From Acidimicrobiaceae bacterium (GTDB taxonomy: Bacteria > Actinomycetota > Acidimicrobiia > Acidimicrobiales > Aldehydirespiratoraceae), in the NCBI GenBank assembly GCA_009843735.1, contig VYCW01000051.1, positions 7,964-71,963 on the forward strand: a stretch of 64,000 bases of DNA, given 5' to 3'. Below are positions 15,298 through 27,224 of this stretch, one piece after another. The notes beneath the pieces are model-generated. The model ran no database searches. It was not told where the DNA came from and worked only from the letters and a program-made list of their open reading frames with translations. Position 1 is the stretch's first letter. The number at the start of each line of letters is the position of its first letter. The translations under genes and the position numbers were made by a program.

Positions 15298-15298
15298 G

Positions 15299-16372
15299 GT
15301 GGCCGGGTCGTCGCCACACGCCCGCGGCAACCGGGTTCTGGTGGCCATGTCGGGCGGGGTGGACTCGTCGGTGGCCGCGGCCTTGCTGCAGGAGGCCGGC
15401 TACGACGTGGCCGGGGTCACCATGAAGCTGTGGGGCGGTCCAAGCGACACCGGCTGCTGCTCGGTGTCGGACGTGGACGACGCCCGCTGGGTGGCCGACC
15501 AGCTCGGCGTCGAGCATCACGTCTTCAACTTCGGCGACGACTTCGAGCGTCACGTCGTGGAGCCGTACGTGGCCGACCACGCCGCGGGCCGCACCCCGAA
15601 TCCGTGCGTGGAGTGCAACCGCCACATCAAGTTCCGCCGGCTGCTGCGCCGGGCCGACGCGCTCGGGTTCGAACTGGTAGCCACCGGCCACCACGCCCGC
15701 ATCGTGGCCACCGCCAACGGTCCCCGGATCGGGCGGGGCGTCGATGCGGCCAAGGACCAGTCCTACGTGCTGCACATGCTCGACGCCCCGGCGTTGGACC
15801 GGCTGCTGCTGCCGGTGGGGGAGATGACCAAGGACGAGGTGCGGCGCCACGCCGAGGCTCGGGGTCTGGTCACGGCATCAAAGCCCGACAGCCAGGACGT
15901 CTGCTTCATCACCTCGTCGTCCGGTCGCCGGAAGTTCCTCAGCGAGCGCATCCCGATGCGTGCGGGGAGGGTGGTCGACACCGCGGGCCAACAGGTCGGC
16001 ACGGTCGAGTCGCTCGAGCTGGTGACGGTCGGCCAGCGCCGGGGACTCGGCGCTATAGGCGACGGGTCGCCCCGCTACGTGCTGGACGTGGATGCCGACT
16101 CGGCCACAGTCACGGTGGGGGACCGGGCTGCACTCGACTGCCCGATCACGCCCCTGGAGGACTGGCGCTGGGCGAACGGGCCAGTGGAGGGTCCCCTGCG
16201 GGTGCAGACCTCAGCCCATGGCGTCGCAGCGGCGGCCACGATCGACGGCGACGGCACCGCAGTGCACTGGGCCGATCCCCGCCGGGCAGTGGCTCCCGGC
16301 CAGAGCGTCGTCGCCTACGCAGGCGATCTCGTGGTCGGCGGCGGCACCGCCGCCCGGCCTAGCGGCCGTTGA
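15299..16372 (+). CDS. mnmA: tRNA-specific 2-thiouridylase
   Basis: It has the PP-loop VAMSGGVDSSVAA plus NPCVECNRHIKF and KDQSYVL blocks. I trimmed the track ORF (15128) to the in-frame GTG at 15299, 1 nt after the iscS stop. Confidence 0.9.
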   Translation: MAGSSPHARGNRVLVAMSGGVDSSVAAALLQEAGYDVAGVTMKLWGGPSDTGCCSVSDVDDARWVADQLGVEHHVFNFGDDFERHVVEPYVADHAAGRTPNPCVECNRHIKFRRLLRRADALGFELVATGHHARIVATANGPRIGRGVDAAKDQSYVLHMLDAPALDRLLLPVGEMTKDEVRRHAEARGLVTASKPDSQDVCFITSSSGRRKFLSERIPMRAGRVVDTAGQQVGTVESLELVTVGQRRGLGAIGDGSPRYVLDVDADSATVTVGDRAALDCPITPLEDWRWANGPVEGPLRVQTSAHGVAAAATIDGDGTAVHWADPRRAVAPGQSVVAYAGDLVVGGGTAARPSGR

Positions 16373-17333
16373 TGACAGCAGAGGAGAACAGCCGCAGGCC
16401 TGTCATCGTGTGCTGGTAGTCGACCGTGTCAATCGTGTCGATGCAGATGATCATCTCGTCGATCCCTAGAGCATCGGTGGAGTCATGCGCCCACTGGTGC
16501 AGGCCGTCTAGCGGGCCAACATACGAGTGGATCCAATGGTCGAGTTCGTGACGGAGCACCGAGGGTTCCATGCCGATCTGGCCGGCGCGGCGATCGATCG
16601 CGGCGTACCGCTCGTCAACGGTGCCGATCGGGTCGTCGGTCAACAGGACCGTGCACATCCGGCTGATCACCAGATCGTCGCCGCGACGCCCAAGCGCGTC
16701 GGCCGTACGGCGAGTAGCGCGGGCGATCTCAGCGGTCCTGGCGTTGCCCCTGGATAACACATTGACGCGGTCTGCGAAGCGGGCGGCCAGAGCCACCATC
16801 CTGGGCTTCTCAGCCGCCAGAAGGATCTCTGGGCCGCCGCTACGTGGTGGCTTCGGCTCGCAGACACCTCCGGAGATCGAGTAGTAGTCGCCCTCGAAGT
16901 CGGTCCGGGTCTGGGTCCACAGCGATCGCAAGATCTCGAGTTCTTCTCCGAGCATGGCGACCCGCTCACGGGCGCTCGGGAACTCGATCCCCAGGGACCG
17001 CTGCTGCTCCGGCGCGTTTCCCGCGCCCATGCCAACGATCATCCGGCCACCACTCAGCAGATCCGCAGTAGAGGTGATCTTCGCGAACAGGCCGGGATGA
17101 CGCCTCCCCACCGGCGACACCAGCGAGCCGAGACGCAGGTGCCTTGTGCGCATCGCCATCGCCGGGAGCATCGTCCAAGGCTCGAAGGTGCCCACATCGA
17201 TGTTCGCTTGATGCGCGAAGATGTCGTCACCGATATAGCAGGCGTGGAAGCCGAGCGACTCGATCTCCGCAGCCGCGTCCAGATACTCGGCGACGGTCCA
17301 GCCCCATCCCACCAGCAGAACCGACGGGAGCAT
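16359..17333 (-). CDS. Luciferase-like monooxygenase (LLM) class flavin/F420-dependent oxidoreductase
   Basis: The LLM blocks are RLGSLVSPVGRRHPGLFAK and GGRMIVGMGAGN. The start was trimmed to the ATG at 17333-17331, 1 nt downstream of the stop of the preceding gene. This is the last gene of the minus-strand operon. Confidence 0.8.
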   Translation of the reverse strand: MLPSVLLVGWGWTVAEYLDAAAEIESLGFHACYIGDDIFAHQANIDVGTFEPWTMLPAMAMRTRHLRLGSLVSPVGRRHPGLFAKITSTADLLSGGRMIVGMGAGNAPEQQRSLGIEFPSARERVAMLGEELEILRSLWTQTRTDFEGDYYSISGGVCEPKPPRSGGPEILLAAEKPRMVALAARFADRVNVLSRGNARTAEIARATRRTADALGRRGDDLVISRMCTVLLTDDPIGTVDERYAAIDRRAGQIGMEPSVLRHELDHWIHSYVGPLDGLHQWAHDSTDALGIDEMIICIDTIDTVDYQHTMTGLRLFSSAVINGR

Positions 17334-17334
17334 C

Positions 17335-18534
17335 TCAGGCCGTCCCGTCTGCGAGCAGGTCGTCAAGGATCCGGTTGGCGAACAGGTATTGGGGCTCGTC
17401 CCAGAACGGCGCGTAGAACCCCCGGTCACGAGCGGGAGAGCGCCGTGACCGCTGTATGGCCTCCATCACCGCCGCGTCTTCCTCGGCAGCCTGAGCGAAT
17501 AGCTCGTCGGCAGCTCGACGCCTCGGCGCGTAGTCCGAGGTGGCGGCCTGCTTGCGCACCAGGGTCGCTCCCCGGACCCGGGTGCGATCGGGCGCCTCGG
17601 GGAACTGGATCACGGGGGCTATCAGGGTGTCCATCACCGCCACCGAGAGGTTCGGGTAGCTCTGCAGGAAGAAGCCCCGCTCGGGCCTGCTGTTCCGGCC
17701 TATGTGGGGCAGGTCGATGGGCGGGTAGGTCGCCGTCACGTCTGACTCGGCGTAACTGAAGCCAAAGACGTTGCCGGTCGAGACCACCTCGAACTTGGGA
17801 GTACCGTCCGGGCCGACCCTGGGAATCTCCGGAGAAGCGGCGTACATGGCGTGCGTGAACGATTCGTGCAGGATGTTCAGGCAGTCGTTGTCAGCGAAGG
17901 TCTTCCAGTTTGTGGCCAGTACTGACTCGAACACGTCGATCTGTCCCGACTCGTCGGTTGCCGTGCCTAGATCGTCGAGGTCGAATTCGTGCAGGAGCTC
18001 CTCGAAGGATCCGATGTAACTGGAGAAATCGGGTGACCGGGAGCCGGCGCTTACGAACACGACTCCGAGGGACACATCGCACGCGATTCCCTTGAGGTCT
18101 CGATGCTGCATGGGGACAGCGGGGAGACCATTGCCGGGAGGCCCCGCCCAGTAAGGCGCGTCGATGAGCCGCCCTTCGAGGTCGTAGCGCCATCCGTGAT
18201 AGGCCACACGCAAGTCAGCCGCCTGCTTCACCGGCGCGGTGACCACTGGGCAGCCGTCGTAGGCGCACACATTGTGGAACGCCCTAATCCGGCCGTCGGA
18301 GCCCTTCACCACGAAGATCGGCAGGCCGCACACGTCGATTGGCATCGCATCGCCGACGTGAGCGAGTTCGTCGGCGAAGCACGCCGCGAGCCAGTTCCGC
18401 TCGACGATGCACTCCTGCTCCAGGGCGAAGAAGTCGGCCGCGGTGAACGCCCGCCGGGGAAACGTCCTGGCCTCACCAATGGGCCGGCGAATCGCTTCCG
18501 TTTCGGCTTGGGTGAGAAGGTGTGCGGTGCCCAT
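17335..18534 (-). CDS. Rieske-type ring-hydroxylating oxygenase alpha-subunit homologue with non-canonical Rieske ligands
   Basis: The start was trimmed to MGTAHLL (ATG 18534-18532). The Rieske region reads FHNVCAYDGC...VAYHGWRYDLEGRL, against the canonical C-x-H...C-x-x-H. The catalytic domain keeps NWK...D and the HESFTH 2-His pattern. Confidence 0.75.
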   Translation of the reverse strand: MGTAHLLTQAETEAIRRPIGEARTFPRRAFTAADFFALEQECIVERNWLAACFADELAHVGDAMPIDVCGLPIFVVKGSDGRIRAFHNVCAYDGCPVVTAPVKQAADLRVAYHGWRYDLEGRLIDAPYWAGPPGNGLPAVPMQHRDLKGIACDVSLGVVFVSAGSRSPDFSSYIGSFEELLHEFDLDDLGTATDESGQIDVFESVLATNWKTFADNDCLNILHESFTHAMYAASPEIPRVGPDGTPKFEVVSTGNVFGFSYAESDVTATYPPIDLPHIGRNSRPERGFFLQSYPNLSVAVMDTLIAPVIQFPEAPDRTRVRGATLVRKQAATSDYAPRRRAADELFAQAAEEDAAVMEAIQRSRRSPARDRGFYAPFWDEPQYLFANRILDDLLADGTA

Positions 18535-18545
18535 CGCGTCTCCTG

Positions 18546-19289
18546 CTAGGTCTGGACCGTGTATCCGTACCAGACGTTGGGTTCCTCCAGCCAGCAGCGG
18601 TCGGCGTCCACGTCGACATGGAGTAGATCCAGAGCGCCATCGATCACGTACCGGCCGCTGGCGGGGAGTTCGAGGCCTGTCCATTCCTCCCAGTCGGAGA
18701 CGGAGCCTTCGAAGCGCATCGGCTCCCGGCAGACGCCCAAGCGCTGGGCACCTCCGGCGATCTGAGCGCGGATCCAGGGGTCGAAGGCGGTGCCGTCGGG
18801 GCGCTTCCAATCGATGTACTCCTCGAATGGGATCGTCGGATAGAGGTGCTTGCGGGTGGGTCGGATCGGGGCGATCAAGTGCGACAGACCATGATCGCGG
18901 CACAGGCGATTGCCCTCTTCCAGCGCCCGGGCCGCCACGCCCTTCCCGCTGTGGGAGTCGGCTACCGCTACCTGGATCCCGCAGAGGGTGGTCACTGCCC
19001 GGCCCTCGCGTCGATGGCGCAGGCTGCGGGCCAGCACCTCGTGCTCGCTGTGGGGCAGGCCCTCGGTCGTTCCGTCCCAGAACACGGGCACGGAGTTGAA
19101 GACTCCGGCCAGTTCGTCGGTGGTCTCGTCCACGAGGTACAGCTGCAGGTCTGCGAACGCCGCGATCACCAGGGGCCAGTGCTCATTCCATATCGAATCG
19201 TGCAGCATGAACTCCGGGAAGGCGTCCGATTCCATCTGCTCGAAGTGCTCGAGCAGTTCGGGCTTCTGGGCGTGGCTCAGGATCTTCAC
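18546..19289 (-). CDS. GNAT-family acyltransferase with a ~100-aa C-terminal extension
   Basis: 247 aa. The acetyl-CoA pocket-like motif is VAVADSHSGKGVAARAL. The conserved-looking C-terminal block is RPTRKHLYPTIPFEEYIDWKRPDGTAFDPWIR. It overlaps the upstream gene's stop by 4 nt. Confidence 0.65.
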   Translation of the reverse strand: MKILSHAQKPELLEHFEQMESDAFPEFMLHDSIWNEHWPLVIAAFADLQLYLVDETTDELAGVFNSVPVFWDGTTEGLPHSEHEVLARSLRHRREGRAVTTLCGIQVAVADSHSGKGVAARALEEGNRLCRDHGLSHLIAPIRPTRKHLYPTIPFEEYIDWKRPDGTAFDPWIRAQIAGGAQRLGVCREPMRFEGSVSDWEEWTGLELPASGRYVIDGALDLLHVDVDADRCWLEEPNVWYGYTVQT

Positions 19290-20134
19290 GTTCCGGAACC
19301 TCTCCGCTGCGGCTCCCGTCGCCTCAGGTAGTCGATCGCGATGCTGTGCAACCGTTCCTGGCCGAAGGCCTCGCCGTGGCCGGGTAGAACCGTGTTCACC
19401 GTCATTTGTGCCAGCCGCCGCATCGTCTCCACATAAGCATCGATATCACTTCCGGCTAGCTCATCGAGGAGCGGGCCGTCGTACACCGCGTCACCCGAGA
19501 GCAGCAGCCCGCTACGGGCGTCGTAGAGCCCGATGCTGCCCGGGGAGTGGCCCGGCAGGTGCAGGACCTCCAACGCCCGGTCGCCGAGGTCGATCACGTC
19601 CCCTTCGCCGAGTAGCCGGGTCGGGGCAGCAGGACGGTGCGGAAGCTGGTCGAGTTCGAACCCGTCGTGCGGCACCGCCATCACGAAACACTCGGGCATG
19701 AGGTATCCCGCCCGTTGCATGTGGGCGTTCTCGGCCGGATCAAGGTCCGCGCTCCAGAGGCTGACGATGTCGGGATCCGCCGTGGCCGGATCCACGTAGT
19801 GGGCCTCGTCCCGGTGCACCCAGCGCTGCCCGAACTCGTGCCACCCGCCGGCGTGGTCGGCATGAGTGTGGGTTAGGACGACCACGGCTTCGCGTCCGGG
19901 GGCGATTTTCAGGTGCGGCCAGAGGGGAGTTATGCCGAGCCCGGTGTCAACCACTAGGTCGAAATGCTTGCCCGCGATCCACCACACATTGCATCGAAGC
20001 ACCTCCGCAACGTACGGCTCCCGCAGCAGGGCGATGCCCGGGGAGAAATCGGCCCGATTCCACCAAGCCCCGGCAATGGGCAGCGGAGCCGAACTCTCGC
20101 CCCGTCCCCGGCTCAAGCGTCCTAGCCCGCTCAC
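19286..20134 (-). CDS. Metallo-beta-lactamase-fold hydrolase
   Basis: It has the HxHxDH motif (VLTHTHADHAGG) and a later HLPGHSPGS. I trimmed the track ORF to the GTG at 20134-20132, which forms a GTGA overlap with the stop of the preceding small gene. Confidence 0.75.
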   Translation of the reverse strand: MSGLGRLSRGRGESSAPLPIAGAWWNRADFSPGIALLREPYVAEVLRCNVWWIAGKHFDLVVDTGLGITPLWPHLKIAPGREAVVVLTHTHADHAGGWHEFGQRWVHRDEAHYVDPATADPDIVSLWSADLDPAENAHMQRAGYLMPECFVMAVPHDGFELDQLPHRPAAPTRLLGEGDVIDLGDRALEVLHLPGHSPGSIGLYDARSGLLLSGDAVYDGPLLDELAGSDIDAYVETMRRLAQMTVNTVLPGHGEAFGQERLHSIAIDYLRRREPQRRGSGT

Positions 20135-20379
20135 GCCGCGTCCCTGGCTCGTGCGATGCCCAGCAGCGCCAGCAGCGCCACGACGAACCAGACGAATTCG
20201 AGCACCACGAAAGGCGGATACCAGATCACGGCCGAGGCAATGCAGGCGAGCGCCGCACCGACGGCGTTCAGCGCCTGGTAGAGGCGGGAGGACGCCGAGA
20301 GCCGGCCGACAAGGTTGAGGGCGAAGGCGGCCAGGAGGATCGACACGCCCGCAGACCCGATGAGGGTCTCGATGCTCAT
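20131..20379 (-). CDS. 82-aa integral membrane protein (3 predicted helices)
   Basis: It is the C-terminal part of track ORF 20131..21456: MSIETLIGSAGVSILLAAFALNLVGRL...WYPPFVVLEFVWFVVALLALLGIA. Its ATG forms an ATGA overlap with the livF-like stop, and its own stop overlaps the MBL start. Confidence 0.6.
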   Translation of the reverse strand: MSIETLIGSAGVSILLAAFALNLVGRLSASSRLYQALNAVGAALACIASAVIWYPPFVVLEFVWFVVALLALLGIARARDAA

Positions 20380-21104
20380 GGAGCGTCCCTCGGAACGATG
20401 TCCTCGGAGCCCAGGTAGGCGGCGTCGAGGCGGGACCGGTCCGCCAGGAGTTGACTGGCAGGCCCTGACAGCACAAGGTCGCCGTGGCTCAGGACGTATG
20501 CCCGGTCGCTGTGGGAAAGTGCCAACTCGGCGTACTGCTCCACCAGCAGGGCGCCTGCGCCGGTGTCCGCGACGACTTGACGGACGACCGGCAGCAGCTG
20601 CGCGAAGATCAGCGGTGCCAGTCCGAGAGAGAGCTCGTCGATGAGCAACAGCCTCGGCTCGCTCAGGATGGCCCGCCCCATGACCAGCATCTTCTGCTCG
20701 CCGCCGGAGAGCAGAGCAGCCTTTCGCTCCATCAAGGGAGCCAGGGCGGGGAAGTAGGCGAGCGCCTTGTCGAAGTCGGGACGGCCGCGCCGAACCCCCA
20801 GCACCAGGTTCTCTCGCACGGTCAGCTGGCCGAGCACACCCCGGCCCTCGGGCACGTGCGCCACGCCTCGCCGGGCGACCTCGTGGGCCCGTCGCAGCCT
20901 TGGGACGGGGCCGCCCAGGACGGTGATGTCCCCCTTGAGGCGGGCCACGAGTCCCGACACGGCACGCAGCGTGGTCGTCTTGCCGGCACCGTTGGGTCCC
21001 AGCAGGGTGACCACCTCGCCGGCTCGAACATGGAGCGAAAGGTCCCTGACCACCGGTACCCCGTCGTAGCCGGCGCTCAGCCCGTCGATATCGAGCAGCG
21101 TCAT
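20376..21104 (-). CDS. ABC transporter ATP-binding protein, LivF-like
   Basis: Walker A GPNGAGKTT, signature LSGGEQKML, Walker B LLLIDELSLGLAP. Confidence 0.9.
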   Translation of the reverse strand: MTLLDIDGLSAGYDGVPVVRDLSLHVRAGEVVTLLGPNGAGKTTTLRAVSGLVARLKGDITVLGGPVPRLRRAHEVARRGVAHVPEGRGVLGQLTVRENLVLGVRRGRPDFDKALAYFPALAPLMERKAALLSGGEQKMLVMGRAILSEPRLLLIDELSLGLAPLIFAQLLPVVRQVVADTGAGALLVEQYAELALSHSDRAYVLSHGDLVLSGPASQLLADRSRLDAAYLGSEDIVPRDAP

Positions 21105-21868
21105 GTCCGATCCTCGGCGTCGGAGTGCTCCTCGCCCAGGTAGGCCTCAACCACTCGGGGATCCCGGCGGATCTGCTCGGGAGCGCCCTCAGCGATGACC
21201 GACCCGAACTCGAGCACCCAGATGCGGTCGCACACCGACAGGACCAGGTCCATGTCGTGGTCCACCAGCAACAGCGTGGCCCCGCCGTCGACCATGGCGC
21301 GCAGCCGGGCACCCAGCCACACCGTCTCAGCCCGGTCCAGGCCTGCTGCCGGCTCGTCGAGCAGCACGATCCGCGACTGGGCCACCATGGCGCGGGCAAT
21401 CCCCACCAGCTTGCGCTGGCCGAGCGATAGTTCCTGGGGCAAGCGGGAGCGCGCACCAGTCAGCTCGAAACGCTCCAGTACTTCCTCGATGCGCTCGTCG
21501 CGCTCACGGCGCCACAGCCCGGTAACGGCTCGGCCCAGCGTCAAGGGCTGGCTGGCTACGGCCAGGTTCGACCAGACATCGATGTCGTCGAAGAGCTCGA
21601 CGGACTGCCAGGTCCGGTTGAGGCCCCGCTGAGACAGCACGTGGGGCGGCACGGAGCTGATGTCCTCCCCCCTGAACAGCACCGTGCCTGACGCATTGGA
21701 CGGCAGGAATCCAGTGACTGCGTCGATGAAGGTCGTCTTGCCGGCGCCGTTGGGCCCGATGAGTCCCGTCAGCTCACCGTGGCGGCAGGCGATGTCGACC
21801 CCCGTTAGCGCCTCCACCCCGCCGAAGGCGACCCGCAGGCCCTGGCTCTCGAGCACAGTGGGGCTCAC
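21101..21868 (-). CDS. ABC transporter ATP-binding protein, LivG-like
   Basis: Walker A GPNGAGKTT, signature LSLGQRKLV, Walker B VLLDEPAAGLD. The start was trimmed to the GTG at 21868-21866, giving a GTGA overlap with the permease stop. Confidence 0.9.
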   Translation of the reverse strand: MSPTVLESQGLRVAFGGVEALTGVDIACRHGELTGLIGPNGAGKTTFIDAVTGFLPSNASGTVLFRGEDISSVPPHVLSQRGLNRTWQSVELFDDIDVWSNLAVASQPLTLGRAVTGLWRRERDERIEEVLERFELTGARSRLPQELSLGQRKLVGIARAMVAQSRIVLLDEPAAGLDRAETVWLGARLRAMVDGGATLLLVDHDMDLVLSVCDRIWVLEFGSVIAEGAPEQIRRDPRVVEAYLGEEHSDAEDRT

Positions 21869-23934
21869 GGCGCGCTTCCGATCGGCGCTGGGGGCAGTGC
21901 CCGGCGATTGAGAAGGGCACGACACTTCTTCGCAACATACCGATTGAACCGCCGGGTCGACCCGGCGATGCCGTCGGCGTCGAAGGCCAACTCGGCGATC
22001 AGGAAGGTTCCCGCGATATAGGTCTCGTAGCGCCCGAGCACGATCAACTCCTCGCCGACGACTGTGCCGATCCCGGCTCCCACCAGCGTGCCGGTCCACA
22101 GGGCACCGCTCACCGTGCTGATGCCACCGAGGTAGGCGTAGGCGATTAGCACTAGCGAGGCCGTCCAGCCGAACGTGTCGGACTGAAACGATCCAAGCTG
22201 GGCGGCCTTCAGGCCACCCGCGGCTCCGGCCAGCGCGGCACCGATCACGAAGGCCGTCAGCTTGATGCGGGCGATGTCGACACCGGCCGCCGCGGCGGCC
22301 CGCTCGTTGGCCCTTACCGCCAGCATCTGCCGGCCCGTGGGGCTGCGCCGCAGCAGCGACACGAACACGCACGCAGCCACGGCCACGGCCAGGATGAGCA
22401 CTCCGATGGCCGGAGATGGCCGCTTGTCGTCCCCCAGGAAGAATTCAGAGGCCGAACCCAACTCGATCCCGAACAACTCGGGTGCGTCCGCTCTGGCCCG
22501 TCGTGACGTTCCGAACCATCCGTCGCGGCGGAACAGCACGGCTTCGATGGCGATGCCGGCGCCGAGAGTGATGATGGCCAGGCTCGGGCCCCGCGACCGC
22601 AGTGCCAACATCCCGACAACGAGACCGAACAGCGCTGAGGTGGCGATGGCAAGCGGGTATCCGAGGATGAACGGGACGCCGGCCTCGGCTACATACGACC
22701 CGAGACCAAAGGCCGCGATGCCCGACAGCGCGACCTGGGCCAGTGACACCTGCCCCACGAAACCGGTGACGACCACGAGGCTGAGCGCCAGGATGATCCC
22801 GATCAACGAGTTGTTGATGCCGTTGCGGTACTCGAAGGGCAACCAGATGGACGCAGCCAGGACCGCGAGCACGAACAGCACCACCGGAACCGGCCGTATC
22901 CGGTCGGCGTAGGCCAGCGGAAGACGCTCGCTGCCGACCGCTCCCCGTCCTGGCACCGCGTCACCCCTGGCGGCCATCGCCACCGCGATCACCGCCAGCG
23001 GGAGGATCTCGGCCAGGTCCAAGTCCGGTACCCAGTCCTGACGCTGCTCCAGGATGAAGATCAGGCTCTGAGCCATGCCGATCCCCACGCCGACGAGGGC
23101 CGACGTCCAGAACGACGAGAAGGCGCCAACCAGGGCCGCGGCCACCGCCGGCACGATCAGGAGTGTCATCCTGCCCGGGCTGACACCGGTGATAGGAGCC
23201 ACCAGGATGCCGACACCGCCGGCTACCACGCTGGCGACGACCCAGCTTACGGCGGCCTGGAAGTCCGCCGAGTAGCCCAGCAGGGTCGCGACCTCCTCGT
23301 TCTCGGCCGCGGCGCGGGTGGCGATCCCGAAACGGGTGAAGCGGAACGCGGTCCACAGCACCAGCGTGACCGCTAGCAGCAGGGCCAGCAGAATGAACCG
23401 GTCGCGCGGGATCAAAGTCCCTGCGATGCTCACCGTGGCGTCGGGAAGCAGCGCCTCCGCGTGCTTGGCCTGCGATCCGAACCTGAGCACCACCACGGCC
23501 TGCAGAGTGAGCAGCATCCCGATCGAGGCCACCACCTTGGCCGTCGCGGGGGCGTATCGCAGCGGTCTGAACACCAGGAAATGAGCCGCGAGTCCCAACA
23601 GCACCGCCGTTGCCATCGCGACGGCAATCGCGGTTGGAATGGAGGTTCCGTCGCCCACGTCGATGATGGTTGGAAGGTCGGGAGCGTCGAAGTGGAGGCC
23701 GAACCATCCGGCGATCCCGGCTGCGATGGCAAGAGGATTGGGAAGCGGAGGCACCGGGTACTCGCCGTTGTTCCGCATCTCGACGAAGACGTAGGTGACG
23801 TAGGTGGCGATGGCTCCGTGCCCGAAGTTGATGACGCCCGAGGCCCGGAAGCTGAGGGTCAGCCCAATCGCTAGCGCGCCGATGATGACACCGGTGCCGA
23901 TGCCGATGAGCAGGAACTGCAGATAGATGCTCAC
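21865..23934 (-). CDS. Fused LivH/LivM-type branched-chain-amino-acid-family ABC permease
   Basis: 689 aa and highly hydrophobic throughout. Two permease halves are in one polypeptide, and the gene sits upstream of the LivG/LivF-like ATPases. Confidence 0.85.
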   Translation of the reverse strand: MSIYLQFLLIGIGTGVIIGALAIGLTLSFRASGVINFGHGAIATYVTYVFVEMRNNGEYPVPPLPNPLAIAAGIAGWFGLHFDAPDLPTIIDVGDGTSIPTAIAVAMATAVLLGLAAHFLVFRPLRYAPATAKVVASIGMLLTLQAVVVLRFGSQAKHAEALLPDATVSIAGTLIPRDRFILLALLLAVTLVLWTAFRFTRFGIATRAAAENEEVATLLGYSADFQAAVSWVVASVVAGGVGILVAPITGVSPGRMTLLIVPAVAAALVGAFSSFWTSALVGVGIGMAQSLIFILEQRQDWVPDLDLAEILPLAVIAVAMAARGDAVPGRGAVGSERLPLAYADRIRPVPVVLFVLAVLAASIWLPFEYRNGINNSLIGIILALSLVVVTGFVGQVSLAQVALSGIAAFGLGSYVAEAGVPFILGYPLAIATSALFGLVVGMLALRSRGPSLAIITLGAGIAIEAVLFRRDGWFGTSRRARADAPELFGIELGSASEFFLGDDKRPSPAIGVLILAVAVAACVFVSLLRRSPTGRQMLAVRANERAAAAAGVDIARIKLTAFVIGAALAGAAGGLKAAQLGSFQSDTFGWTASLVLIAYAYLGGISTVSGALWTGTLVGAGIGTVVGEELIVLGRYETYIAGTFLIAELAFDADGIAGSTRRFNRYVAKKCRALLNRRALPPAPIGSAP

Positions 23935-24019
23935 GAGTCGTCGCCGACGATCTCAGCCGCTCCGGTCGTGATGTTAGCCGCGGAGACTCGAGGCCCCGCT
24001 TCAGGGCTTGTGATGATGT

Positions 24020-25357
24020 TCAGCCGAGAGCCTCGAACTCCGAGAAGTCGATCGGCGCCAATCCGACGTCCTTCATCGAAGTGCCGTCGACCTCGAGCAC
24101 TATCAGGCTCGATACGCACGCACCGGGGAACGGGTCGGGTCCTGGACAGGAGACGTCGGCGTAGTAGCCGGTCGTGAGCTGTACCCGGCTCAGCGCCTCG
24201 TTGACCGTCTCGCGGGAGAGATTCTCGTATCCCACGTCAACCAGCGCGGCGTGGACACCGAGGACAGACACGAGGGCCCAGCCGGCGAGACCGTAGACCT
24301 CAGCTTCTTCGGATCCGTAGGTTTCGATGATCCGCTGACCCTCGAGGACCGCATCGCTGGCCAGGGACGGGTCGACCGGCAGGGCGCTGGCTCCGAACAC
24401 AAGCCACCCGTCCAGGGCGCCACTCGCCACCGTGTCCTCGAGAGCACAAGTGTCGAAGGTGATGATGGCCGTTTCGACCGACAGTGACGACAGCGCATCG
24501 GCTAGCGGCGAGCACTGGGTGCCGTCTATAGCGGCCATCACGACGTCGACGTCGGCCGCTCCCGAGGCGGTGACCACACCGACGTAGTCGGCCTGTTCGA
24601 AGGCTGCAGGCGTGATGCCGGTTACTTCCAGGCCAGCATTCTCTGCGAAGACGCTGGCTGCGTCGCAGGCCTCCAGGAAGAAGGGGTCGTCGAGGCAGAT
24701 GATCGCCATGGTGCCAGCGCCAATGGTGTCGGCCGCATAGGCCACGGGTCCCTGTACCAATCCCAGGAAGCCGGGATCGAAGATCCATTCGGTCGGTCGC
24801 TGCCAGTCGTCGGGCAGGTTGGCCAGTGCCAGCTGCGGCAGACCGGCCGGGACGGTGACCTCCGCAGCCTCGTTGCTCGAGTAGCTGCTGGTGATCATCA
24901 CGTGGATGTCGTCGTCGTTGGCGAACTGCTGGGCGCATGCCACCGCGCCTTCGGGACCGTCACCGGAAGTGCAGAGCTCAAGCTCCAACGGGTGCCCGTC
25001 CACTCCACCGAGCTCCGCGTTTATGTACGCAACCGCAGCTTCGGCAGCCCTGCGGGCTTCGATGATCGAGAAGAGCTCCTCCTCCTGGGAGTCGAATCCG
25101 ATTCTGACCGGGTCCATAGCAGTGTCGTCCGGCTCTGGTGCCTCCTCTGGTGCGGCGGTTGTTGCCGGTGCGGCAGTCGTCGCCGGTGCGGCGGTTGTTG
25201 CCGGTGCCTCCGCTTCGGGCGCGTCGTCATCCCCGCAGGAGGCGGCAACCAGCGCGAACACCCCGAACAGGCCAGCGAGCAGCCGAACCCCTCTCGCCGA
25301 GATCGGACTTCTGCCGGTCTCTGTTCGTGTGGTTGCCTCGCCCCGCTGCCGGTTCAT
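24020..25357 (-). CDS. Lipoprotein substrate-binding protein (type I periplasmic-binding fold, Liv/amide family)
   Basis: The start was trimmed to MNRQRG (ATG 25357-25355). The signal and lipobox are LLAGLFGVFALVAASCG, followed by a low-complexity linker with 3x PATTAA and then a PBP1-like domain. Confidence 0.8.
   Translation of the reverse strand: MNRQRGEATTRTETGRSPISARGVRLLAGLFGVFALVAASCGDDDAPEAEAPATTAAPATTAAPATTAAPEEAPEPDDTAMDPVRIGFDSQEEELFSIIEARRAAEAAVAYINAELGGVDGHPLELELCTSGDGPEGAVACAQQFANDDDIHVMITSSYSSNEAAEVTVPAGLPQLALANLPDDWQRPTEWIFDPGFLGLVQGPVAYAADTIGAGTMAIICLDDPFFLEACDAASVFAENAGLEVTGITPAAFEQADYVGVVTASGAADVDVVMAAIDGTQCSPLADALSSLSVETAIITFDTCALEDTVASGALDGWLVFGASALPVDPSLASDAVLEGQRIIETYGSEEAEVYGLAGWALVSVLGVHAALVDVGYENLSRETVNEALSRVQLTTGYYADVSCPGPDPFPGACVSSLIVLEVDGTSMKDVGLAPIDFSEFEALG
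25149..25202 (-). repeat. 3 x 18-bp in-frame tandem repeat encoding (APATTA)3 in the SBP linker
   Basis: The plus-strand units are ggtgcggcggttgttgcc / ggtgcggcagtcgtcgcc / ggtgcggcggttgttgcc. Units 1 and 3 are identical, and unit 2 differs only synonymously. Confidence 0.9.
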
Positions 25358-25387
25358 GACTGCTCCCATCTCCGATTCCGAAATTTT

Positions 25388-25405
25388 TTCGTTCGACTGA
25401 ATGAA
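25388..25405. promoter_or_regulatory. Candidate TetR operator (imperfect palindrome) in the divergent SBP/TetR intergenic region
   Basis: TTCGTTC-GACT-GAATGAA has half-sites matching 6/7 as an inverted repeat. It lies in the 77-bp AT-richer gap between divergent starts 25357 and 25435. Confidence 0.3.
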
Positions 25406-25434
25406 TTGGGCGAGGTTATGCTTACCGCCCATCC

Positions 25435-26118
25435 ATGTCAAACGACAGCCTTGGTTCCCCCGTTAGGCGGGTCGGCCGTCCCCGTGCCGACAAACGCGTC
25501 CCCGAAGGCGACGTCTCCGAGCACATCCTCGCGGCGTCAGCCGAACTGTTCATCCGCCAGGGCTACACGGCTACCACCACCCGCCAGATAGCGGCTGCGG
25601 TCGGCTTGCGGCAGGGGTCGTTGAGCCACTACTTCCCGCGGAAGAAGGACATTTTCGCAGAACTGCTCGACCGTACGGTTGAACCCGCGCTGACGATGAT
25701 CGACGGACTCGATCCAGGGTTGCCGCCCGAGGTCCGGCTGTGGCTCCTGCTGTCGACCGACTGCTTCAATCTGGCGTCGGGTGAGCAGAACCTGGCCAGT
25801 CTCATGCTGCTCCCCGAAGCACGAAGTGATGAGTTCGACCAGTTCTGGGCTAGGCGCGACCAACTCAAGGATCGGTATCGGGACATCATCGTGGCGGGCT
25901 TGAGGCACGGGTCCCTGTCTTGTAGCGATGTTCTTCTAGCCGTTGACGCCACCTTCGGGATCGTCGAGAGCATCATCACCTGGTTCGAGCGGGGCGGGCC
26001 GGTGACGTCTCGCGGCGCTGTCCATCACGTCGCGCGAGCCGCACTGGCTGCGCTATTGACGTCGCCGTCTGAAGTGGATCGGGTAATCGCTCAGGCCGAA
26101 GCGCTGGTGGCAGCATGA
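25435..26118 (+). CDS. TetR/AcrR-family transcriptional regulator
   Basis: The N-terminal HTH is FIRQGYTATTTRQIAAAVGLRQGSLSHYFPRKKDIF. It is divergent from the ABC/enzyme operon. Confidence 0.9.
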   Translation: MSNDSLGSPVRRVGRPRADKRVPEGDVSEHILAASAELFIRQGYTATTTRQIAAAVGLRQGSLSHYFPRKKDIFAELLDRTVEPALTMIDGLDPGLPPEVRLWLLLSTDCFNLASGEQNLASLMLLPEARSDEFDQFWARRDQLKDRYRDIIVAGLRHGSLSCSDVLLAVDATFGIVESIITWFERGGPVTSRGAVHHVARAALAALLTSPSEVDRVIAQAEALVAA

Positions 26119-26152
26119 GGCCGCGGACCATGCGGACGGGTGATTCGACAGC

Positions 26153-27214
26153 TTGATGTCAACGAGGATCAATTCGCCCATGACCGGACCGAGCCGACGC
26201 GAGGTCTCCTTGCCCAAGCTGGATGTCTATGTGCTGCCGGTCGAGGTGAGCTGGCAGCAGGTCCGCACCATGTTTCTGCGAGCAGAGGAATTGGGCTTCC
26301 ACACTGCCTGGATCCACGACAACGTGGTCGGGCCTGTGCCCTGGAAGCCTGACGCCGCGGTCTACGACTCCTGGAGTGTTCTAGGTGCGCTGGGCGAAGC
26401 CACGTCGCGCATAAGGCTCGGATCTCTGGTCACTCCGATGGGACGACGCCATCCAAGCGTTTTCGCCAAGATGACGGCGTCCTTCGACAACACCAGCGGT
26501 GGGCGCCTCGACTTGGGGATGGGTCCCGGAGATGAGCCCCATCAATACGAGCCCTGGGGACTGCGCTATCCGGAGCCACCCGAACGCATCGAGATCCTCG
26601 AGGAGGAGATCGAGATCATCAAGGGACTCTGGACCAATGATCGCGTGACCTACGAGGGCAAGCACTACCAACTGCGGGACGCCACGCTTGCCCCGAAGCC
26701 GCTGCAGAAGCCCCACCCACCGATCTGGATCGGTCTCGTGTTCGGCCGCAGAGTCATGCCGCGCGTCGCCGCCCGCCACGCCGACGGTGTGAACTTCTAC
26801 TCCAAACATGACGAAGACGTGGCCGCGACGATTGAGCAGGTCCGGTCGCTGTGCAGAGACATCGGACGCGACCCCGCACCGATCAAGTTCTCGCGCTGCG
26901 TGTCGGTTTGGGTGACCGACGACATCCCCGATGTCGAAGCCGAGTTGAACCGAGTCGGTGAGGAGTACGGCACCGGCGGAGACTACGTGCGCGACTATGT
27001 GGCCGCTTATGAGCGCATGGCGATCGGCCCCCCGGAGGTGATCGCTGAGGAGTTCGTGAAGCAGGCCCAGCTTGGAATCGACCAGATCATCGTCAACATG
27101 ATCCTGGGGCCCGGTCCGGCACACAAGGACTTGCCGGTTGTGGAAGGAGTGCTTCGCACCTGGGAGCGCATCGCCACAGAGGTGCGGCCCTTGATGGAGG
27201 CGACGCTCAGCTAG
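26153..27214 (+). CDS. LLM-class flavin/F420-dependent oxidoreductase
   Basis: It has RLGSLVTPMGRRHPSVFAK, GGRLDLGMGPG and KPLQKPHPPIWIG blocks. The start could instead be the internal M at about 26180. Confidence 0.8.
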   Translation: MMSTRINSPMTGPSRREVSLPKLDVYVLPVEVSWQQVRTMFLRAEELGFHTAWIHDNVVGPVPWKPDAAVYDSWSVLGALGEATSRIRLGSLVTPMGRRHPSVFAKMTASFDNTSGGRLDLGMGPGDEPHQYEPWGLRYPEPPERIEILEEEIEIIKGLWTNDRVTYEGKHYQLRDATLAPKPLQKPHPPIWIGLVFGRRVMPRVAARHADGVNFYSKHDEDVAATIEQVRSLCRDIGRDPAPIKFSRCVSVWVTDDIPDVEAELNRVGEEYGTGGDYVRDYVAAYERMAIGPPEVIAEEFVKQAQLGIDQIIVNMILGPGPAHKDLPVVEGVLRTWERIATEVRPLMEATLS

Positions 27215-27224
27215 CCCTTCGTCC

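What the first reader, a model, noticed from the sequence alone, without database searches (positions are those of the whole stretch)
16359..26118. Tightly coupled 9-gene operon joining a Liv-type ABC importer to MBL, GNAT, Rieske-like and LLM enzymes, with a divergent TetR
**Gene order.** The minus-strand genes run SBP lipoprotein (25357), fused LivHM permease, LivG-like, LivF-like, an 82-aa membrane protein, an MBL hydrolase, a GNAT with a C-terminal extension, a Rieske-type oxygenase and an LLM oxidoreductase (16359).

**Coupling.** Six of the eight junctions are 4-nt start/stop overlaps (GTGA at 21865-68, ATGA at 20376-79, GTGA at 20131-34, plus 21101-04 and 19286-89) or a 1-nt spacer (17333/17335). 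The other two are 85-nt and 11-nt gaps. This argues for a single translationally coupled unit.

**Regulation.** A TetR gene is divergent across a 77-bp gap that contains an imperfect palindrome, TTCGTTC-N4-GAATGAA.

**Interpretation.** The enzyme combination (hydrolase + acyltransferase + oxygenase + flavin/F420 oxidoreductase) behind a PBP1-type binding protein does not correspond to any catabolic or biosynthetic pathway I can name. The substrate is unknown.
Basis: partly seen in the sequence, partly recalled or inferred. Interest (0 to 1): 0.6.

Follow-up and report, generated by a model that had tools for sequence, protein, structure and literature searches.

The report
Importer operon with cluster-less Rieske enzyme
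A sponge-symbiont actinobacterium carries a repressor-controlled, 11-gene uptake-and-breakdown locus for an unidentified small metabolite, and its "Rieske oxygenase" has lost the iron-sulfur cluster that defines that enzyme class.

Summary
All nine minus-strand genes, the five 4-nt overlaps, the 1-nt spacer, the 11- and 85-nt gaps, the divergent TetR and the palindrome sit exactly where stated.

The functional unit is larger than described. A second LLM gene (26153-27214) follows the TetR gene. All 11 genes travel together in at least 12 Acidimicrobiales genomes (Aldehydirespiratoraceae, mostly sponge-derived), in different flanking contexts.

The intergenic region holds a conserved promoter-like TTGACA-N17-TAnnnT. 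Just downstream lies a conserved inverted repeat, TTTCrTTC-N4-GAACGAAA.

- **LLM enzymes.** Both are F420-class. In Pseudomaricurvus alkylphenolicus the same enzyme module lies beside cofC-cofGH and npdG.
- **"Rieske oxygenase".** It belongs to a small monophyletic clade nearest the quaternary-ammonium oxygenases Stc2 and CntA. The clade keeps the His-His-Asp iron site. It has lost two of the four [2Fe-2S] ligands and the bridging carboxylate, and it has no reductase partner.
- **Commonest neighbour.** This is the MBL hydrolase, followed by LLMs, the GNAT-fold protein, amine oxidases and esterases.

No characterised ortholog or pathway was found, and the substrate remains unknown. My best guess is a nitrogenous, cationic marine or sponge metabolite.

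The parts
16359..17333 (-). LLM1, a luciferase-like oxidoreductase of the F420-dependent class. It is the last gene of the operon.
   Evidence: - Pfam Bac_luciferase 144 bits, above the 27.9 cut-off.
- The best NCBIfam hits are all F420-LLM families. TIGR03560 scores 159 bits, below its 231 cut-off.
- The closest PDB chains are Mer, Fgd1 and fHMAD.
- Orthologs sit next to cofC-cofGH and npdG in L033.
17335..18534 (-). Rieske-fold / RHO-alpha-like non-heme iron protein with a degenerate [2Fe-2S] site ('Rieske*').
   Evidence: - Pfam Rieske 50 bits and Ring_hydroxyl_A 53 bits.
- The HMM alignment to Stc2 (3vca) shows C-R-H becoming C90-A-Y92 and C-P-Y-H becoming V110-A-Y-H113. The bridging Glu becomes N220. 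H223, H228 and D353 are kept.
- AF2 model pLDDT 94.9. The best Foldseek hits are Stc2, TM1040_3219 and CntA.
- The clade is monophyletic.
18546..19289 (-). GNAT-fold protein of 247 aa with a beta-rich C-terminal extension. It is a probable acyl-CoA-dependent transferase or decarboxylase.
   Evidence: - Pfam GNAT scores only 17.9 bits, below the cut-off, and there is no NCBIfam hit.
- AF2 pLDDT 96.5.
- Foldseek top hits are the GNAT-like decarboxylase domains of SxtA, CurA and GphF, followed by arylalkylamine, polyamine and agmatine N-acetyltransferases.
- G115 and G117, in the position of the GNAT CoA-binding loop (motif assignment from general knowledge), are nearly invariant in 79 homologs.
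19286..20134 (-). MBL-fold metallo-hydrolase, glyoxalase-II/YcbL-like. It is not a beta-lactamase.
   Evidence: - Lactamase_B 74 bits.
- The H-x-H-x-D-H motif (H89, H91, D93, H94) plus H196, D215 and H253 are invariant across 18 orthologs.
- The best PDB match is 2xf4, YcbL.
- Class B beta-lactamase models score 30-36 bits against cut-offs of 200-240.
- It is the commonest neighbour of Rieske*, present in 26 of 66 loci.
20131..20379 (-). 82-aa CBU_0592-family small membrane protein with three hydrophobic segments.
   Evidence: - NCBIfam NF047864 scores 42.6 bits, above the 25 cut-off.
- PF26604 is recorded on the identical protein.
- It also lies beside Rieske* in loci without the ABC system, L024 and L076.
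20376..21104 (-). LivF/UrtE-like ABC ATPase.
   Evidence: - ABC_tran 85 bits.
- UrtE 175 bits and LivF 167 bits, both below the equivalog cut-offs.
- It is absent from the orthologous clusters L007, L021 and L022.
21101..21868 (-). LivG/UrtD-like ABC ATPase.
   Evidence: ABC_tran 97 bits plus BCA_ABC_TP_C 51 bits. LivG scores 194 bits and UrtD 189 bits.
21865..23934 (-). Fused LivH-LivM type permease of 689 aa.
   Evidence: BPD_transp_2 199 bits in two stretches. The N-terminal half is UrtB/LivH-like and the C-terminal half is LivM/UrtC-like.
24020..25357 (-). Type-I (Peripla_BP_6) substrate-binding protein. It is a probable lipoprotein with an Ala/Pro/Thr-rich linker.
   Evidence: - Peripla_BP_6 91 bits.
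- The N-terminus reads ...FALVAASCGDDD.
- PDB similarity is weak, E about 2e-3. From memory, unverified, those hits (3ukj, 3tx6, 4jb0) are Rhodopseudomonas aromatic-acid binders.
25387..25406 (.). Putative TetR operator, an imperfect inverted repeat TTTCGTTC-GACT-GAATGAAT.
   Evidence: -
- The same element, consensus TTTCrTTC-N4-GAACGAAA, lies in the TetR-SBP intergenic region of L014, L016-L019, L021-L023 and L025. It is a perfect 8-N4-8 repeat in L017.
25413..25441 (-). Promoter-like element for the transporter operon.
- -35 TTGACA at 25441-25436, overlapping the first codons of tetR on the other strand.
- 17-nt spacer.
- -10 TAACCT at 25418-25413.
   Evidence: - TTGACA and a TAnnnT hexamer are conserved in the aligned orthologous intergenic regions.
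- The consensus scan, which needs at least 4 of 6 matches in each hexamer, did not report it.
25435..26118 (+). TetR-family repressor, divergent from the transporter operon.
   Evidence: TetR_N 55 bits and TetR_C_24 40 bits. It is conserved at the same position in all orthologous clusters.
26153..27214 (+). LLM2, a second F420-class luciferase-like oxidoreductase, downstream of tetR. The alternative start at about 26180 gives 344 aa.
   Evidence: - TIGR03560 scores 191 bits, below the 231 cut-off, and all top families are F420-LLMs.
- The closest PDB chains are Mer and Adf.
- It is conserved next to tetR in L001, L006, L007, L009 and L014-L025, with a 4-nt overlap with tetR in L007.

Best explanation
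The locus is an 11-gene regulon made of two divergent operons. It takes up and degrades one unidentified small metabolite.

**Regulation (inferred).**
- Without the inducer, the TetR protein sits on the inverted repeat at 25387-25406. That site lies just downstream of the -10 of the transporter promoter and within tetR's own upstream region.
- Binding therefore blocks both operons.
- Binding of the substrate or an early intermediate releases the repressor.

**Uptake (shown by family membership).** A lipoprotein-anchored type-I binding protein, a fused LivHM permease and two ATPases import the compound. The system belongs to the branched-chain amino-acid (HAAT/Liv) type. The 82-aa CBU_0592 protein is a conserved membrane accessory.

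**Enzymes (fold and cofactor class shown; order and reactions inferred).**
1. Two F420-dependent LLM oxidoreductases transfer hydride to or from the substrate.
2. The cluster-less Rieske-fold protein uses its intact His-His-Asp iron site on an electron-rich intermediate. It has no [2Fe-2S] relay and no reductase, so the substrate itself must supply the electrons, or the chemistry is non-redox.
3. The glyoxalase-II-like MBL hydrolase cleaves the resulting ester, lactone, thioester or amide.
4. The GNAT-fold protein carries out an acyl-CoA-dependent transfer or a decarboxylation.

**Substrate class.** My best guess is a nitrogenous, probably cationic compound such as a betaine, pyridinium, polyamine or guanidino metabolite of sponge or marine origin.
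For: **Architecture.**
- Gene models and junctions are verified.
- Five independent contigs give identical gene calls.
- All 11 genes are kept together at 53-80% protein identity in L006, L007/L008, L009 and L014-L025. Their flanking genes differ.

**Regulation.** The promoter-like TTGACA-N17-TAnnnT and the inverted repeat are conserved in otherwise divergent intergenic regions.

**F420 dependence.**
- The top NCBIfam families for both LLMs are F420 classes.
- In the cultured gammaproteobacterium P. alkylphenolicus (L033), orthologs of both LLMs, the MBL, the GNAT and Rieske* lie beside two F420 genes that pass their curated cut-offs:
  - a CofC-CofG-CofH fusion (1100 bits, cut-off 1018);
  - NpdG/Fno (204 bits, cut-off 150).

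**Cluster-less Rieske protein.**
- Ligand substitutions appear in the alignment to Stc2.
- They hold in all 48 clade members, against 52 canonical relatives.
- Some representatives have no Cys at all in loop 1.
- H223, H228 and D353 are invariant.
- Only 1 ORF with a plant-type ferredoxin motif occurs among 1232 ORFs in the 77 loci.

**Core module.**
- The MBL accompanies Rieske* in 26 of 66 loci.
- LLMs do so in 18, the GNAT in 14 and an esterase directly downstream in 13.

**Nitrogenous substrate.**
- The nearest structures are the quaternary-ammonium oxygenases Stc2 and CntA.
- In other lineages the Rieske*-MBL pair sits with the following:
  - a flavin amine oxidase;
  - an aldehyde dehydrogenase;
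  - a class-III aminotransferase;
  - an M20 amidohydrolase;
  - an agmatinase-like ureohydrolase;
  - a BetI-type TetR.
- The GNAT model resembles agmatine, polyamine and arylalkylamine N-acetyltransferases.
Against: - No transcript, binding or enzymatic data exist.
- Both LLMs score below the curated cut-off of every named F420 family. No F420 biosynthesis gene lies in the 64-kb window.
- The substrate class rests on distant neighbours at 33-43% identity, which may act on different compounds. It also rests on ancestry from Stc2/CntA at only about 20% identity.
- The binding protein's only PDB similarity is weak (E about 2e-3). From memory, unverified, those hits are aromatic-acid binders.
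- The MBL family is very large. In Parvibaculum and Azospirillum it stands alone in uninformative contexts, so it may be a generalist.
- Distant GNAT homologs are also stand-alone.
- The order of the enzymatic steps is conjecture.
Confidence: 0.55

Rival explanations
1. This is a conventional aromatic-acid catabolic operon. The binding protein imports an aromatic acid. A normal Rieske dioxygenase, fed by a reductase encoded elsewhere, hydroxylates the ring. The other enzymes process the product.
For: - The Pfam Rieske and Ring_hydroxyl_A domains pass their thresholds.
- NCBI names relatives 'aromatic ring-hydroxylating dioxygenase subunit alpha'.
- The binding protein's only PDB hits are, from memory and unverified, Rhodopseudomonas aromatic-acid binders.
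Against: - Two of the four [2Fe-2S] ligands and the bridging carboxylate are replaced throughout the clade. Some members have no Cys at all in loop 1.
- No beta subunit, ferredoxin, reductase, dihydrodiol dehydrogenase or ring-cleavage dioxygenase lies in any of the orthologous clusters.
- The nearest structures are alpha-only quaternary-ammonium oxygenases, not arene dioxygenases.
- The binding-protein similarity is only E about 2e-3.
Confidence: 0.08
2. This is an organosulfur (sulfonate, sulfone or sulfate-ester) scavenging locus. The LLMs are FMNH2-dependent SsuD/SfnG-like desulfonating monooxygenases. The MBL is a sulfatase- or persulfide-dioxygenase-like enzyme.
For: - The LLMs also hit SfnG (68-95 bits) and SsuD models.
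- The MBL profile weakly matches ETHE1.
- Gammaproteobacterial loci carry a conserved 533-aa TPR-repeat protein. I read its C-terminal half as sulfotransferase-like from the sequence only. NCBIfam matched only the TPR repeats.
Against: - F420-LLM families score higher than any FMN family for both LLMs.
- No SsuE/MsuE-type flavin reductase is present.
- The L033 module carries F420 biosynthesis genes and an F420:NADPH oxidoreductase instead.
- The transporter is Liv-type, not SsuABC/TauABC-type.
Confidence: 0.07
3. This is a detoxification or resistance cassette. The MBL hydrolase and the GNAT acetyltransferase inactivate a toxic compound, for example an antibiotic or a sponge defence metabolite, under TetR control. 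The purpose would not be nutrition.
For: - MBL and GNAT are classic drug-modifying folds, and TetR regulators often control resistance.
- The alpha/beta hydrolase that follows Rieske* in other loci resembles macrolide esterases, at 127 bits against a 420 cut-off.
Against: - The locus encodes a binding-protein-dependent importer. In other phyla it has TonB receptors and MFS carriers, not an exporter.
- The MBL scores far below every beta-lactamase model.
- Neighbours in other lineages are typical catabolic enzymes: aldehyde dehydrogenase, aminotransferase, acyl-CoA dehydrogenases and enoyl-CoA hydratase.
Confidence: 0.1
4. Rieske* is catalytically inert. It would be a substrate-binding or scaffolding relic, and the real chemistry would be done only by the LLMs, the MBL and the GNAT.
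For: Loss of cofactor ligands is typical of pseudoenzymes.
Against: - The His-His-Asp triad and many surrounding residues (the NWKT..EN..N.LHE.F.H block, E352-D353, the FWD motif) are invariant or nearly so across a clade that has diverged to about 33% identity.
- The protein models confidently as a complete RHO alpha subunit.
- It is the defining, most conserved neighbour of the module across phyla.
Confidence: 0.1

Closest known systems
Quaternary-ammonium Rieske monooxygenases: Stc2 (stachydrine demethylase, 3vca), CntA (carnitine oxygenase, 6y9d) and GbcA
   Same: - The two-domain alpha-only architecture is the same: a Rieske-fold domain plus a Ring_hydroxyl_A catalytic domain.
- The 2-His-1-carboxylate iron site is the same.
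- They are the best sequence and structure neighbours, with Foldseek E 1e-26 to 1e-30 and TM about 0.75.
   Different: - Identity is only about 20-22%.
- The first His and the second Cys of the [2Fe-2S] site are replaced by Tyr and by Val/Ala.
- The bridging Glu is Asn.
- No GbcB/CntB-type reductase gene accompanies it.
- GbcA scores 91 bits against a 670 cut-off.
F420-dependent catabolic systems with paired LLM hydride transferases plus NpdG. The example is the picrate npd genes of Rhodococcus (from my own knowledge, not checked here).
   Same: There are two Mer-like LLM enzymes. In L033 an NpdG-type NADPH:F420 oxidoreductase lies in one cluster with them.
   Different: There is no evidence for nitroaromatic substrates. 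The partners here (MBL, GNAT-fold, cluster-less Rieske-fold, Liv importer) are not part of the npd system. The LLMs fall below every named family cut-off.
Liv/Urt-type (HAAT family) ABC importers
   Same: The system has a Peripla_BP_6 binding protein, two BPD_transp_2 permease domains, and a LivG-type ATPase with its C-terminal motif plus a LivF-type ATPase.
   Different: - The permeases are fused into one polypeptide.
- All components score far below the LivJ/H/M/G/F and UrtA-E equivalog cut-offs.
- A CBU_0592 small membrane protein is coupled to the ATPase gene.
- Some orthologous clusters have only one ATPase.
GNAT-like decarboxylase or loading domains (CurA GNATL, GphF, SxtA), and the agmatine and polyamine N-acetyltransferases
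   Same: The fold is the same, and the glycine-rich loop at the position of the GNAT CoA-binding loop is conserved.
   Different: Identity is 11-17% and TM only about 0.5-0.6. The protein is free-standing with an extra C-terminal beta region of about 100 residues. Catalytic residues were not compared.
homABCDER homarine catabolic operon (PMC13236597)
   Same: It is a marine bacterial operon for a cationic N-methylated metabolite, with a dedicated regulator and transporter.
   Different: The protein families are unrelated: an FAD-binding HomA/HomB pair, a peptidase and an aldehyde dehydrogenase. It is not the same system.

Membership tests
Rieske non-heme iron oxygenase (alpha subunit) | Rieske [2Fe-2S] ligands C-x-H ... 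C-x-x-H | tested here: not met
   - The motifs read C90-A-Y92 and V110-A-Y-H113, so only 2 of the 4 ligands remain.
- The same holds in all 48 clade members.
- Some representatives have no Cys in loop 1.
Rieske non-heme iron oxygenase (alpha subunit) | Mononuclear iron 2-His-1-carboxylate triad in a Ring_hydroxyl_A domain | tested here: met
   H223, H228 and D353 are invariant. Ring_hydroxyl_A scores 52.6 bits, above the 24.9 cut-off.
Rieske non-heme iron oxygenase (alpha subunit) | Bridging Asp/Glu that links the Rieske His to the iron-site His | tested here: not met
   The position is Asn (N220) throughout the clade, except P0170. Canonical relatives have Glu or Asp.
Rieske non-heme iron oxygenase (alpha subunit) | Cognate reductase or ferredoxin | tested here: not met
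   - None is present in the Pfam-annotated clusters.
- Only 1 Fer2-motif ORF occurs among 1232 ORFs in the 77 loci.
- A partner encoded elsewhere cannot be excluded.
F420-dependent LLM oxidoreductases | Luciferase-like TIM-barrel domain | tested here: met
   Bac_luciferase scores 144 bits for LLM1. LLM2 matches Mer and Adf in the PDB.
F420-dependent LLM oxidoreductases | Score above the curated cut-off of a named F420-LLM family | tested here: not met
   TIGR03560 scores 159 bits (LLM1) and 191 bits (LLM2) against a 231 cut-off.
F420-dependent LLM oxidoreductases | Use of F420 as cofactor | not testable with these tools
   The evidence is indirect. F420 families outrank FMN families. Orthologs are clustered with cofC-cofGH and npdG in L033.
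HAAT (Liv-type) ABC importer | Peripla_BP_6 binding protein, two BPD_transp_2 permease domains, and LivG- and LivF-type ATPases | tested here: met
   The Pfam scores are 91, 199, 97 (plus 51 for BCA_ABC_TP_C) and 85 bits, all above threshold.
HAAT (Liv-type) ABC importer | Equivalog of the branched-chain amino-acid (LivJHMGF) or urea (UrtABCDE) systems | tested here: not met
   All scores are far below the cut-offs, for example LivG 194 vs 362, LivF 167 vs 441 and LivJ-like 17 vs 477.
TetR-family repressor with divergent operator | TetR_N HTH domain, and a palindromic site in the divergent intergenic region | tested here: met
   TetR_N scores 55 bits. The inverted repeat is conserved in 9 orthologous regions. 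DNA binding itself is not testable here.
GNAT acyltransferases | Pfam or NCBIfam sequence model above threshold | tested here: not met
   Acetyltransf_1 scores 17.9 bits against a 20.7 cut-off. There is no NCBIfam hit.
GNAT acyltransferases | GNAT fold with a CoA-pyrophosphate binding loop | tested here: met
   The AF2 model has pLDDT 96.5. Foldseek gives probability 1.00 to many GNAT structures. The G115-x-G117 loop is nearly invariant.
Class B metallo-beta-lactamases | Score above the subclass B1/B3 model cut-offs | tested here: not met
   The scores are 30-36 bits against cut-offs of 200-240. The protein is an MBL-fold hydrolase of the glyoxalase-II/YcbL type.
CBU_0592 family membrane protein | NCBIfam NF047864 above its cut-off | tested here: met
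   The score is 42.6 bits against a 25 cut-off. PF26604 is recorded on the identical protein.

The most novel reading that the evidence does not exclude
The CxYDGC clade represents a new catalytic class within the Rieske-oxygenase superfamily. The alpha subunit would have discarded its [2Fe-2S] relay and its reductase. It would activate O2, or do Lewis-acid chemistry, at the retained His-His-Asp iron site, using electrons supplied by the substrate. That substrate would be an intermediate made electron-rich by F420H2-dependent LLM hydride transfer, for example a reduced pyridinium, enamine or hydroquinone-type species. Together with the MBL hydrolase this would define a previously undescribed F420-linked pathway for a nitrogenous marine or sponge metabolite. 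The pathway would be spread by lateral transfer among sponge symbionts of several phyla.
Probability: 0.25. Interest if true: 0.8.

Novelty: new variant of a known kind. Interest (0 to 1): 0.58.

Why it matters
- **Enzymology.** Rieske oxygenases are defined by a two-metallocentre design fed by a reductase.
  - This clade is monophyletic, conserved and clearly under selection. It keeps the catalytic iron site but has lost the cluster, the bridging residue and the reductase.
  - That implies either a new way of supplying electrons or a new, non-monooxygenase reaction on this scaffold.
- **F420 biology.** The recurring link to F420-class LLMs matters. These enzymes form a very large, mostly unassigned family in Actinomycetota. 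A gammaproteobacterium carries F420 biosynthesis genes inside the same cluster. This gives a concrete, testable entry point into F420-dependent catabolism outside the classical hosts.
- **Ecology.** The locus is a candidate route by which sponge-associated Acidimicrobiales, and unrelated symbionts that share the module, use a host- or seawater-derived metabolite.
- **Experiments.** A cultured carrier, Pseudomaricurvus alkylphenolicus KCTC 32386, makes laboratory work feasible.

Tried and rejected
- **Consensus promoter/terminator scan of 15.5-28.5 kb.**
  - It found no promoter and 3 terminator-like sites, against 3.9 expected by chance. It is uninformative for this 66-72% GC genome.
  - The conserved promoter-like element emerged only from comparing orthologs.
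- **RNA elements.** Rfam and tRNA scans of the whole window found nothing. The 85-nt SBP-LivHM gap folds no better than shuffles, z = 0.46.
- **Inverted-repeat finder.** It missed the palindrome because the arms are imperfect.
- **Distant homologs as a guide to substrate.**
  - Distant GNAT homologs (35-38% identity, Lutispora and Anaerolineaceae) are stand-alone genes in unrelated contexts.
  - The MBL family in Parvibaculum and Azospirillum is likewise stand-alone.
  - The nearest canonical Rieske relatives sit with an epimerase-like protein, an amidohydrolase and a creatinase/M24-like protein. This is suggestive of small N-compound catabolism but not decisive.
- **Homarine hom operon.** I considered it and rejected it, because the protein families are unrelated.
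- **Literature searches.**
  - I searched for this enzyme combination, for 'Aldehydirespirator' and for Rieske oxygenases without a cluster.
  - Nothing relevant turned up.
- **F420 and accessory genes in the window.**
  - tblastn found no F420 biosynthesis gene and no Fno.
  - It also found no SnoaL, GFA, amine oxidase or esterase gene.

Full report
**1. Observation**

The window is 64-72% GC.

- The junctions are as described:
  - five ATGA/GTGA 4-nt overlaps at 21865-68, 21101-04, 20376-79, 20131-34 and 19286-89;
  - one 1-nt spacer at 17334;
  - an 11-nt gap at 18535-45;
  - an 85-nt gap at 23935-24019.
- TetR (25435-26118) is divergent across 77 bp. That gap contains TTCGTTC-N4-GAATGAA at 25388-25405.
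- Pfam and NCBIfam support every family call. The exception is the GNAT, which is sub-threshold by sequence (17.9 vs 20.7 bits). Structure rescues it: AF2 pLDDT 96.5, with GNAT folds at the top of Foldseek.
- Gene callers on five independent metagenome contigs that carry identical proteins produced the same models.

**2. The real extent of the unit**

An F420-class LLM gene (26153-27214) follows tetR. In every orthologous locus that I could read, the same 11 genes occur in the same order:

LLM2-TetR <-> SBP-LivHM-LivG-(LivF)-(CBU_0592)-MBL-GNAT-Rieske-like-LLM1

- This holds for L001/L002 (identical), L006/L025 (about 66-80% identity) and L007/L008/L021 (53-79%).
- It also holds for L009 (56-79%, which has extra SnoaL genes and a relocated LLM1), and for L014 and L016-L023.
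- L015 is an exception: tblastn found no TetR or MBL there at 50% coverage or more.
- The flanking genes differ between these genomes:
  - DNA ligase and mnmA in the window;
  - amidohydrolase and adenosine deaminase in L006;
  - GCV_T and DUF418 in L007.
- The cluster is also 3-6 GC points below its flanks. It therefore behaves as a transferable block.
- The 4-nt overlaps recur in these diverged copies. That is the best available sequence-level argument for co-translation and co-transcription.
- The record titles place the carriers in Acidimicrobiales, under 'Candidatus Aldehydirespirator(aceae)'. The closest is Acidimicrobiaceae SB0665_bin_5, at 95%.
- That family contains sponge-symbiotic lineages (PMC11706023).

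**3. Regulation**

I aligned the TetR-SBP intergenic regions of nine clusters. Three conserved blocks stand out in otherwise divergent sequence:

- TTGACA, which overlaps the tetR start codon on the other strand (25436-25441 in the window).
- A TAnnnT hexamer 17 nt downstream (25413-25418).
- Six nucleotides further on, the inverted repeat TTTCrTTC-N4-GAACGAAA (25387-25406). It is a perfect 8-N4-8 palindrome in L017.

This is the layout of a repressor site covering the transcription start of the transporter operon. It also lies in tetR's own upstream region. That is inference, because no binding data exist. The generic promoter/terminator scan, Rfam, and folding of the 85-nt gap gave nothing.

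**4. The 'Rieske oxygenase' is the unusual part**

- A profile of four orthologs aligns to stachydrine demethylase Stc2 (3vca) over both domains.
- The Rieske ligand motifs C-R-H ... C-P-Y-H of Stc2 correspond to C90-A-Y92 ... V110-A-Y-H113. The first His and the second Cys are gone.
- The Glu that bridges the Rieske His to the iron-site His in the Stc2/CntA group is Asn220.
- The iron ligands H223, H228 and D353 are retained.

Across 100 homologs the pattern is all-or-none:

| Group | Loop 1 | Loop 2 | Bridging residue |
|---|---|---|---|
| Relatives down to about 33% identity | C-x-Y-D-G-C | [VASTG]-x-Y-H | Asn |
| More distant relatives | C-R-H-R-G | C-P-Y-H | Glu/Asp |

- In a neighbour-joining tree the 48 degenerate sequences form one clade with no canonical member inside it.
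- I ran a profile search of 1.84 billion representative proteins.
  - It found 17,661 RHO-like proteins.
  - Among the 150 best hits, 30 matched the degenerate pattern outright. Roughly 15-20 more fragments or variants appear to share it.
  - Several of these have no cysteine at all in loop 1 (NISPYDGA, NLSNYPNT). This rules out a rebuilt cluster that uses C95.
- The protein models confidently (pLDDT 94.9). Its nearest structures are Stc2, TM1040_3219 and CntA, the alpha-only quaternary-ammonium oxygenases.
- None of the annotated clusters encodes a ferredoxin or reductase. A motif scan of 1232 ORFs in the 77 loci found a single plant-type ferredoxin motif.
- I found no description of such proteins in the searchable literature.

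**5. The LLMs are F420-class**

- Both LLMs hit F420-LLM families first, though below the curated cut-offs. Their closest PDB chains are Mer, Fgd1, Adf and fHMAD.
- The strongest argument is contextual. In the cultured gammaproteobacterium Pseudomaricurvus alkylphenolicus KCTC 32386 (L033), orthologs of Rieske*, the MBL, the GNAT and both LLMs lie in one locus. That locus also carries:
  - a CofC-CofG-CofH fusion, 1100 bits against a 1018 cut-off;
  - NpdG, the NADPH:F420 oxidoreductase, 204 bits against 150;
  - a SnoaL-like and a GFA-like protein;
  - LysR and AsnC regulators, MFS carriers and a TonB receptor.

**6. What travels with Rieske\***

I clustered the ORFs from 77 loci found with the clade profile.

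| Neighbour of Rieske* | Loci (of 66) |
|---|---|
| MBL hydrolase | 26 |
| LLMs | 18 |
| GNAT | 14 |
| A specific MFS carrier | 14 |
| Alpha/beta hydrolase directly downstream | 13 |
| Flavin amine oxidase | 10 |
| AsnC regulator | 7 |
| SnoaL-like | 6 |
| GFA-like | 6 |

- The MBL orthologs are 42-77% identical, better conserved than Rieske* itself.
- Other neighbours include:
  - aldehyde dehydrogenase;
  - class-III aminotransferase;
  - M20 amidohydrolase;
  - agmatinase-like ureohydrolase;
  - BetI-type TetR;
  - acyl-CoA enzymes.
- Many carriers are MAGs labelled as sponge or coral symbionts from several phyla.
- The enzyme core is therefore a module that different lineages have attached to different uptake systems. 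The Liv-type importer is the Acidimicrobiales solution.
- The MBL is a glyoxalase-II/YcbL-like hydrolase, not a beta-lactamase. Its wider family is very large and often stand-alone.

**7. Mechanism, and how sure I am**

- **Shown:** gene content, coupling, conservation, the promoter/operator element, ligand loss in Rieske*, absence of a reductase, and the F420 context.
- **Inferred at about 0.8:** one TetR-controlled regulon for import plus catabolism.
- **Inferred at about 0.7:** the LLMs use F420.
- **Inferred at about 0.7:** Rieske* carries no [2Fe-2S] cluster and does not act as a reductase-fed monooxygenase.
- **Inferred at about 0.3-0.4:** the substrate is a nitrogenous, cationic small molecule. 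This rests on three lines:
  - the Stc2/CntA ancestry;
  - amine-catabolic neighbours in other lineages;
  - the GNAT model's resemblance to amine N-acetyltransferases.
- **Conjecture:** the step order. LLM hydride transfer would make an electron-rich intermediate. Rieske* would oxidise or cleave it without external electrons. The MBL, or an esterase in other lineages, would hydrolyse the product. The GNAT-fold enzyme would acylate or decarboxylate.

**8. Comparison and novelty**

- At the system level this is an ordinary kind of thing: a repressor-controlled ABC importer fused to catabolic enzymes.
- The enzyme set matches no characterised pathway that I could find.
- The central enzyme fails three of the four tested defining features of Rieske oxygenases while keeping the catalytic site.
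- I therefore rate it a new variant of a known kind, of moderate to good interest. The main value is the cluster-less RHO clade and its link to F420.

Noticed in passing
window 25149-25207: An 18-nt tandem repeat (3.3 copies, 85% matches) lies inside the binding-protein gene. It encodes the repeated APATTA linker between the lipobox and the folded domain.
   Followed up: partly
window 16359-16372: The 3' end of LLM1 overlaps the 3' end of the convergent mnmA-like gene (15128-16372, + strand) by 14 nt. This leaves no room for a terminator between them.
   Followed up: no
window 16000-28000; also 32-34 kb, 44-48 kb and 56-58 kb: GC content dips to 0.64-0.69 across the cluster, against 0.70-0.72 in the flanks. 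The cluster sits in different genomic contexts in L006 and L007, which suggests lateral transfer. Three other GC dips in the window were not examined.
   Followed up: partly
L007/L008/L021 and L022: These orthologous clusters lack the LivF-type ATPase gene. Only a 269-aa LivG-like ATPase lies between the permease and the CBU_0592 gene. L006/L025 lack the CBU_0592 gene instead.
   Followed up: no
L003 3714-4915: In one metagenome contig the Rieske-like gene is called as two pieces, 356 aa and 43 aa. This could be a frameshift, a stop variant or an assembly error.
   Followed up: no
L033 11885-15668 (Pseudomaricurvus alkylphenolicus KCTC 32386): A single 1015-aa protein fuses CofC with CofG and CofH. 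It lies next to npdG, inside a catabolic cluster of a gammaproteobacterium. This is an unusual fusion and an unusual host for F420 biosynthesis.
   Followed up: partly
L024 6940-12183 (Myxococcales MAG): A compact version of the module carries two cluster-less Rieske paralogs: MBL, Rieske* (420 aa), CBU_0592, GNAT, Rieske* (397 aa), LLM. This hints at a possible hetero-oligomer.
   Followed up: no
L015 (Acidimicrobiales chromosome OY759762.1): tblastn found no TetR or MBL match at 50% coverage or more in an otherwise complete cluster. This may reflect gene decay or frameshifts.
   Followed up: no
L017 13397-18500: A second, diverged Liv-type ABC set lies on the opposite strand just downstream of the cluster. 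LivF is 64% identical, LivG 59%, LivHM 51% and the SBP 37%.
   Followed up: no
L026, L028-L030 (sponge-associated gammaproteobacterial MAGs): Here the module is embedded in a locus of about 20 kb. The other genes encode a P450, a canonical KshA-like Rieske protein, a 533-aa TPR-repeat protein, an agmatinase-like enzyme, an NmrA-like protein, two acyl-CoA dehydrogenases, an ADP-forming acyl-CoA synthetase and an enoyl-CoA hydratase. The substrate may therefore be larger or more lipid-like in those lineages.
   Followed up: partly
L009 (GCA_018672395.1, labelled Gemmatimonadales): The full cluster has 56-79% identity to the Acidimicrobiales proteins. It sits in a MAG assigned to another phylum. 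This could be lateral transfer or a binning error.
   Followed up: no
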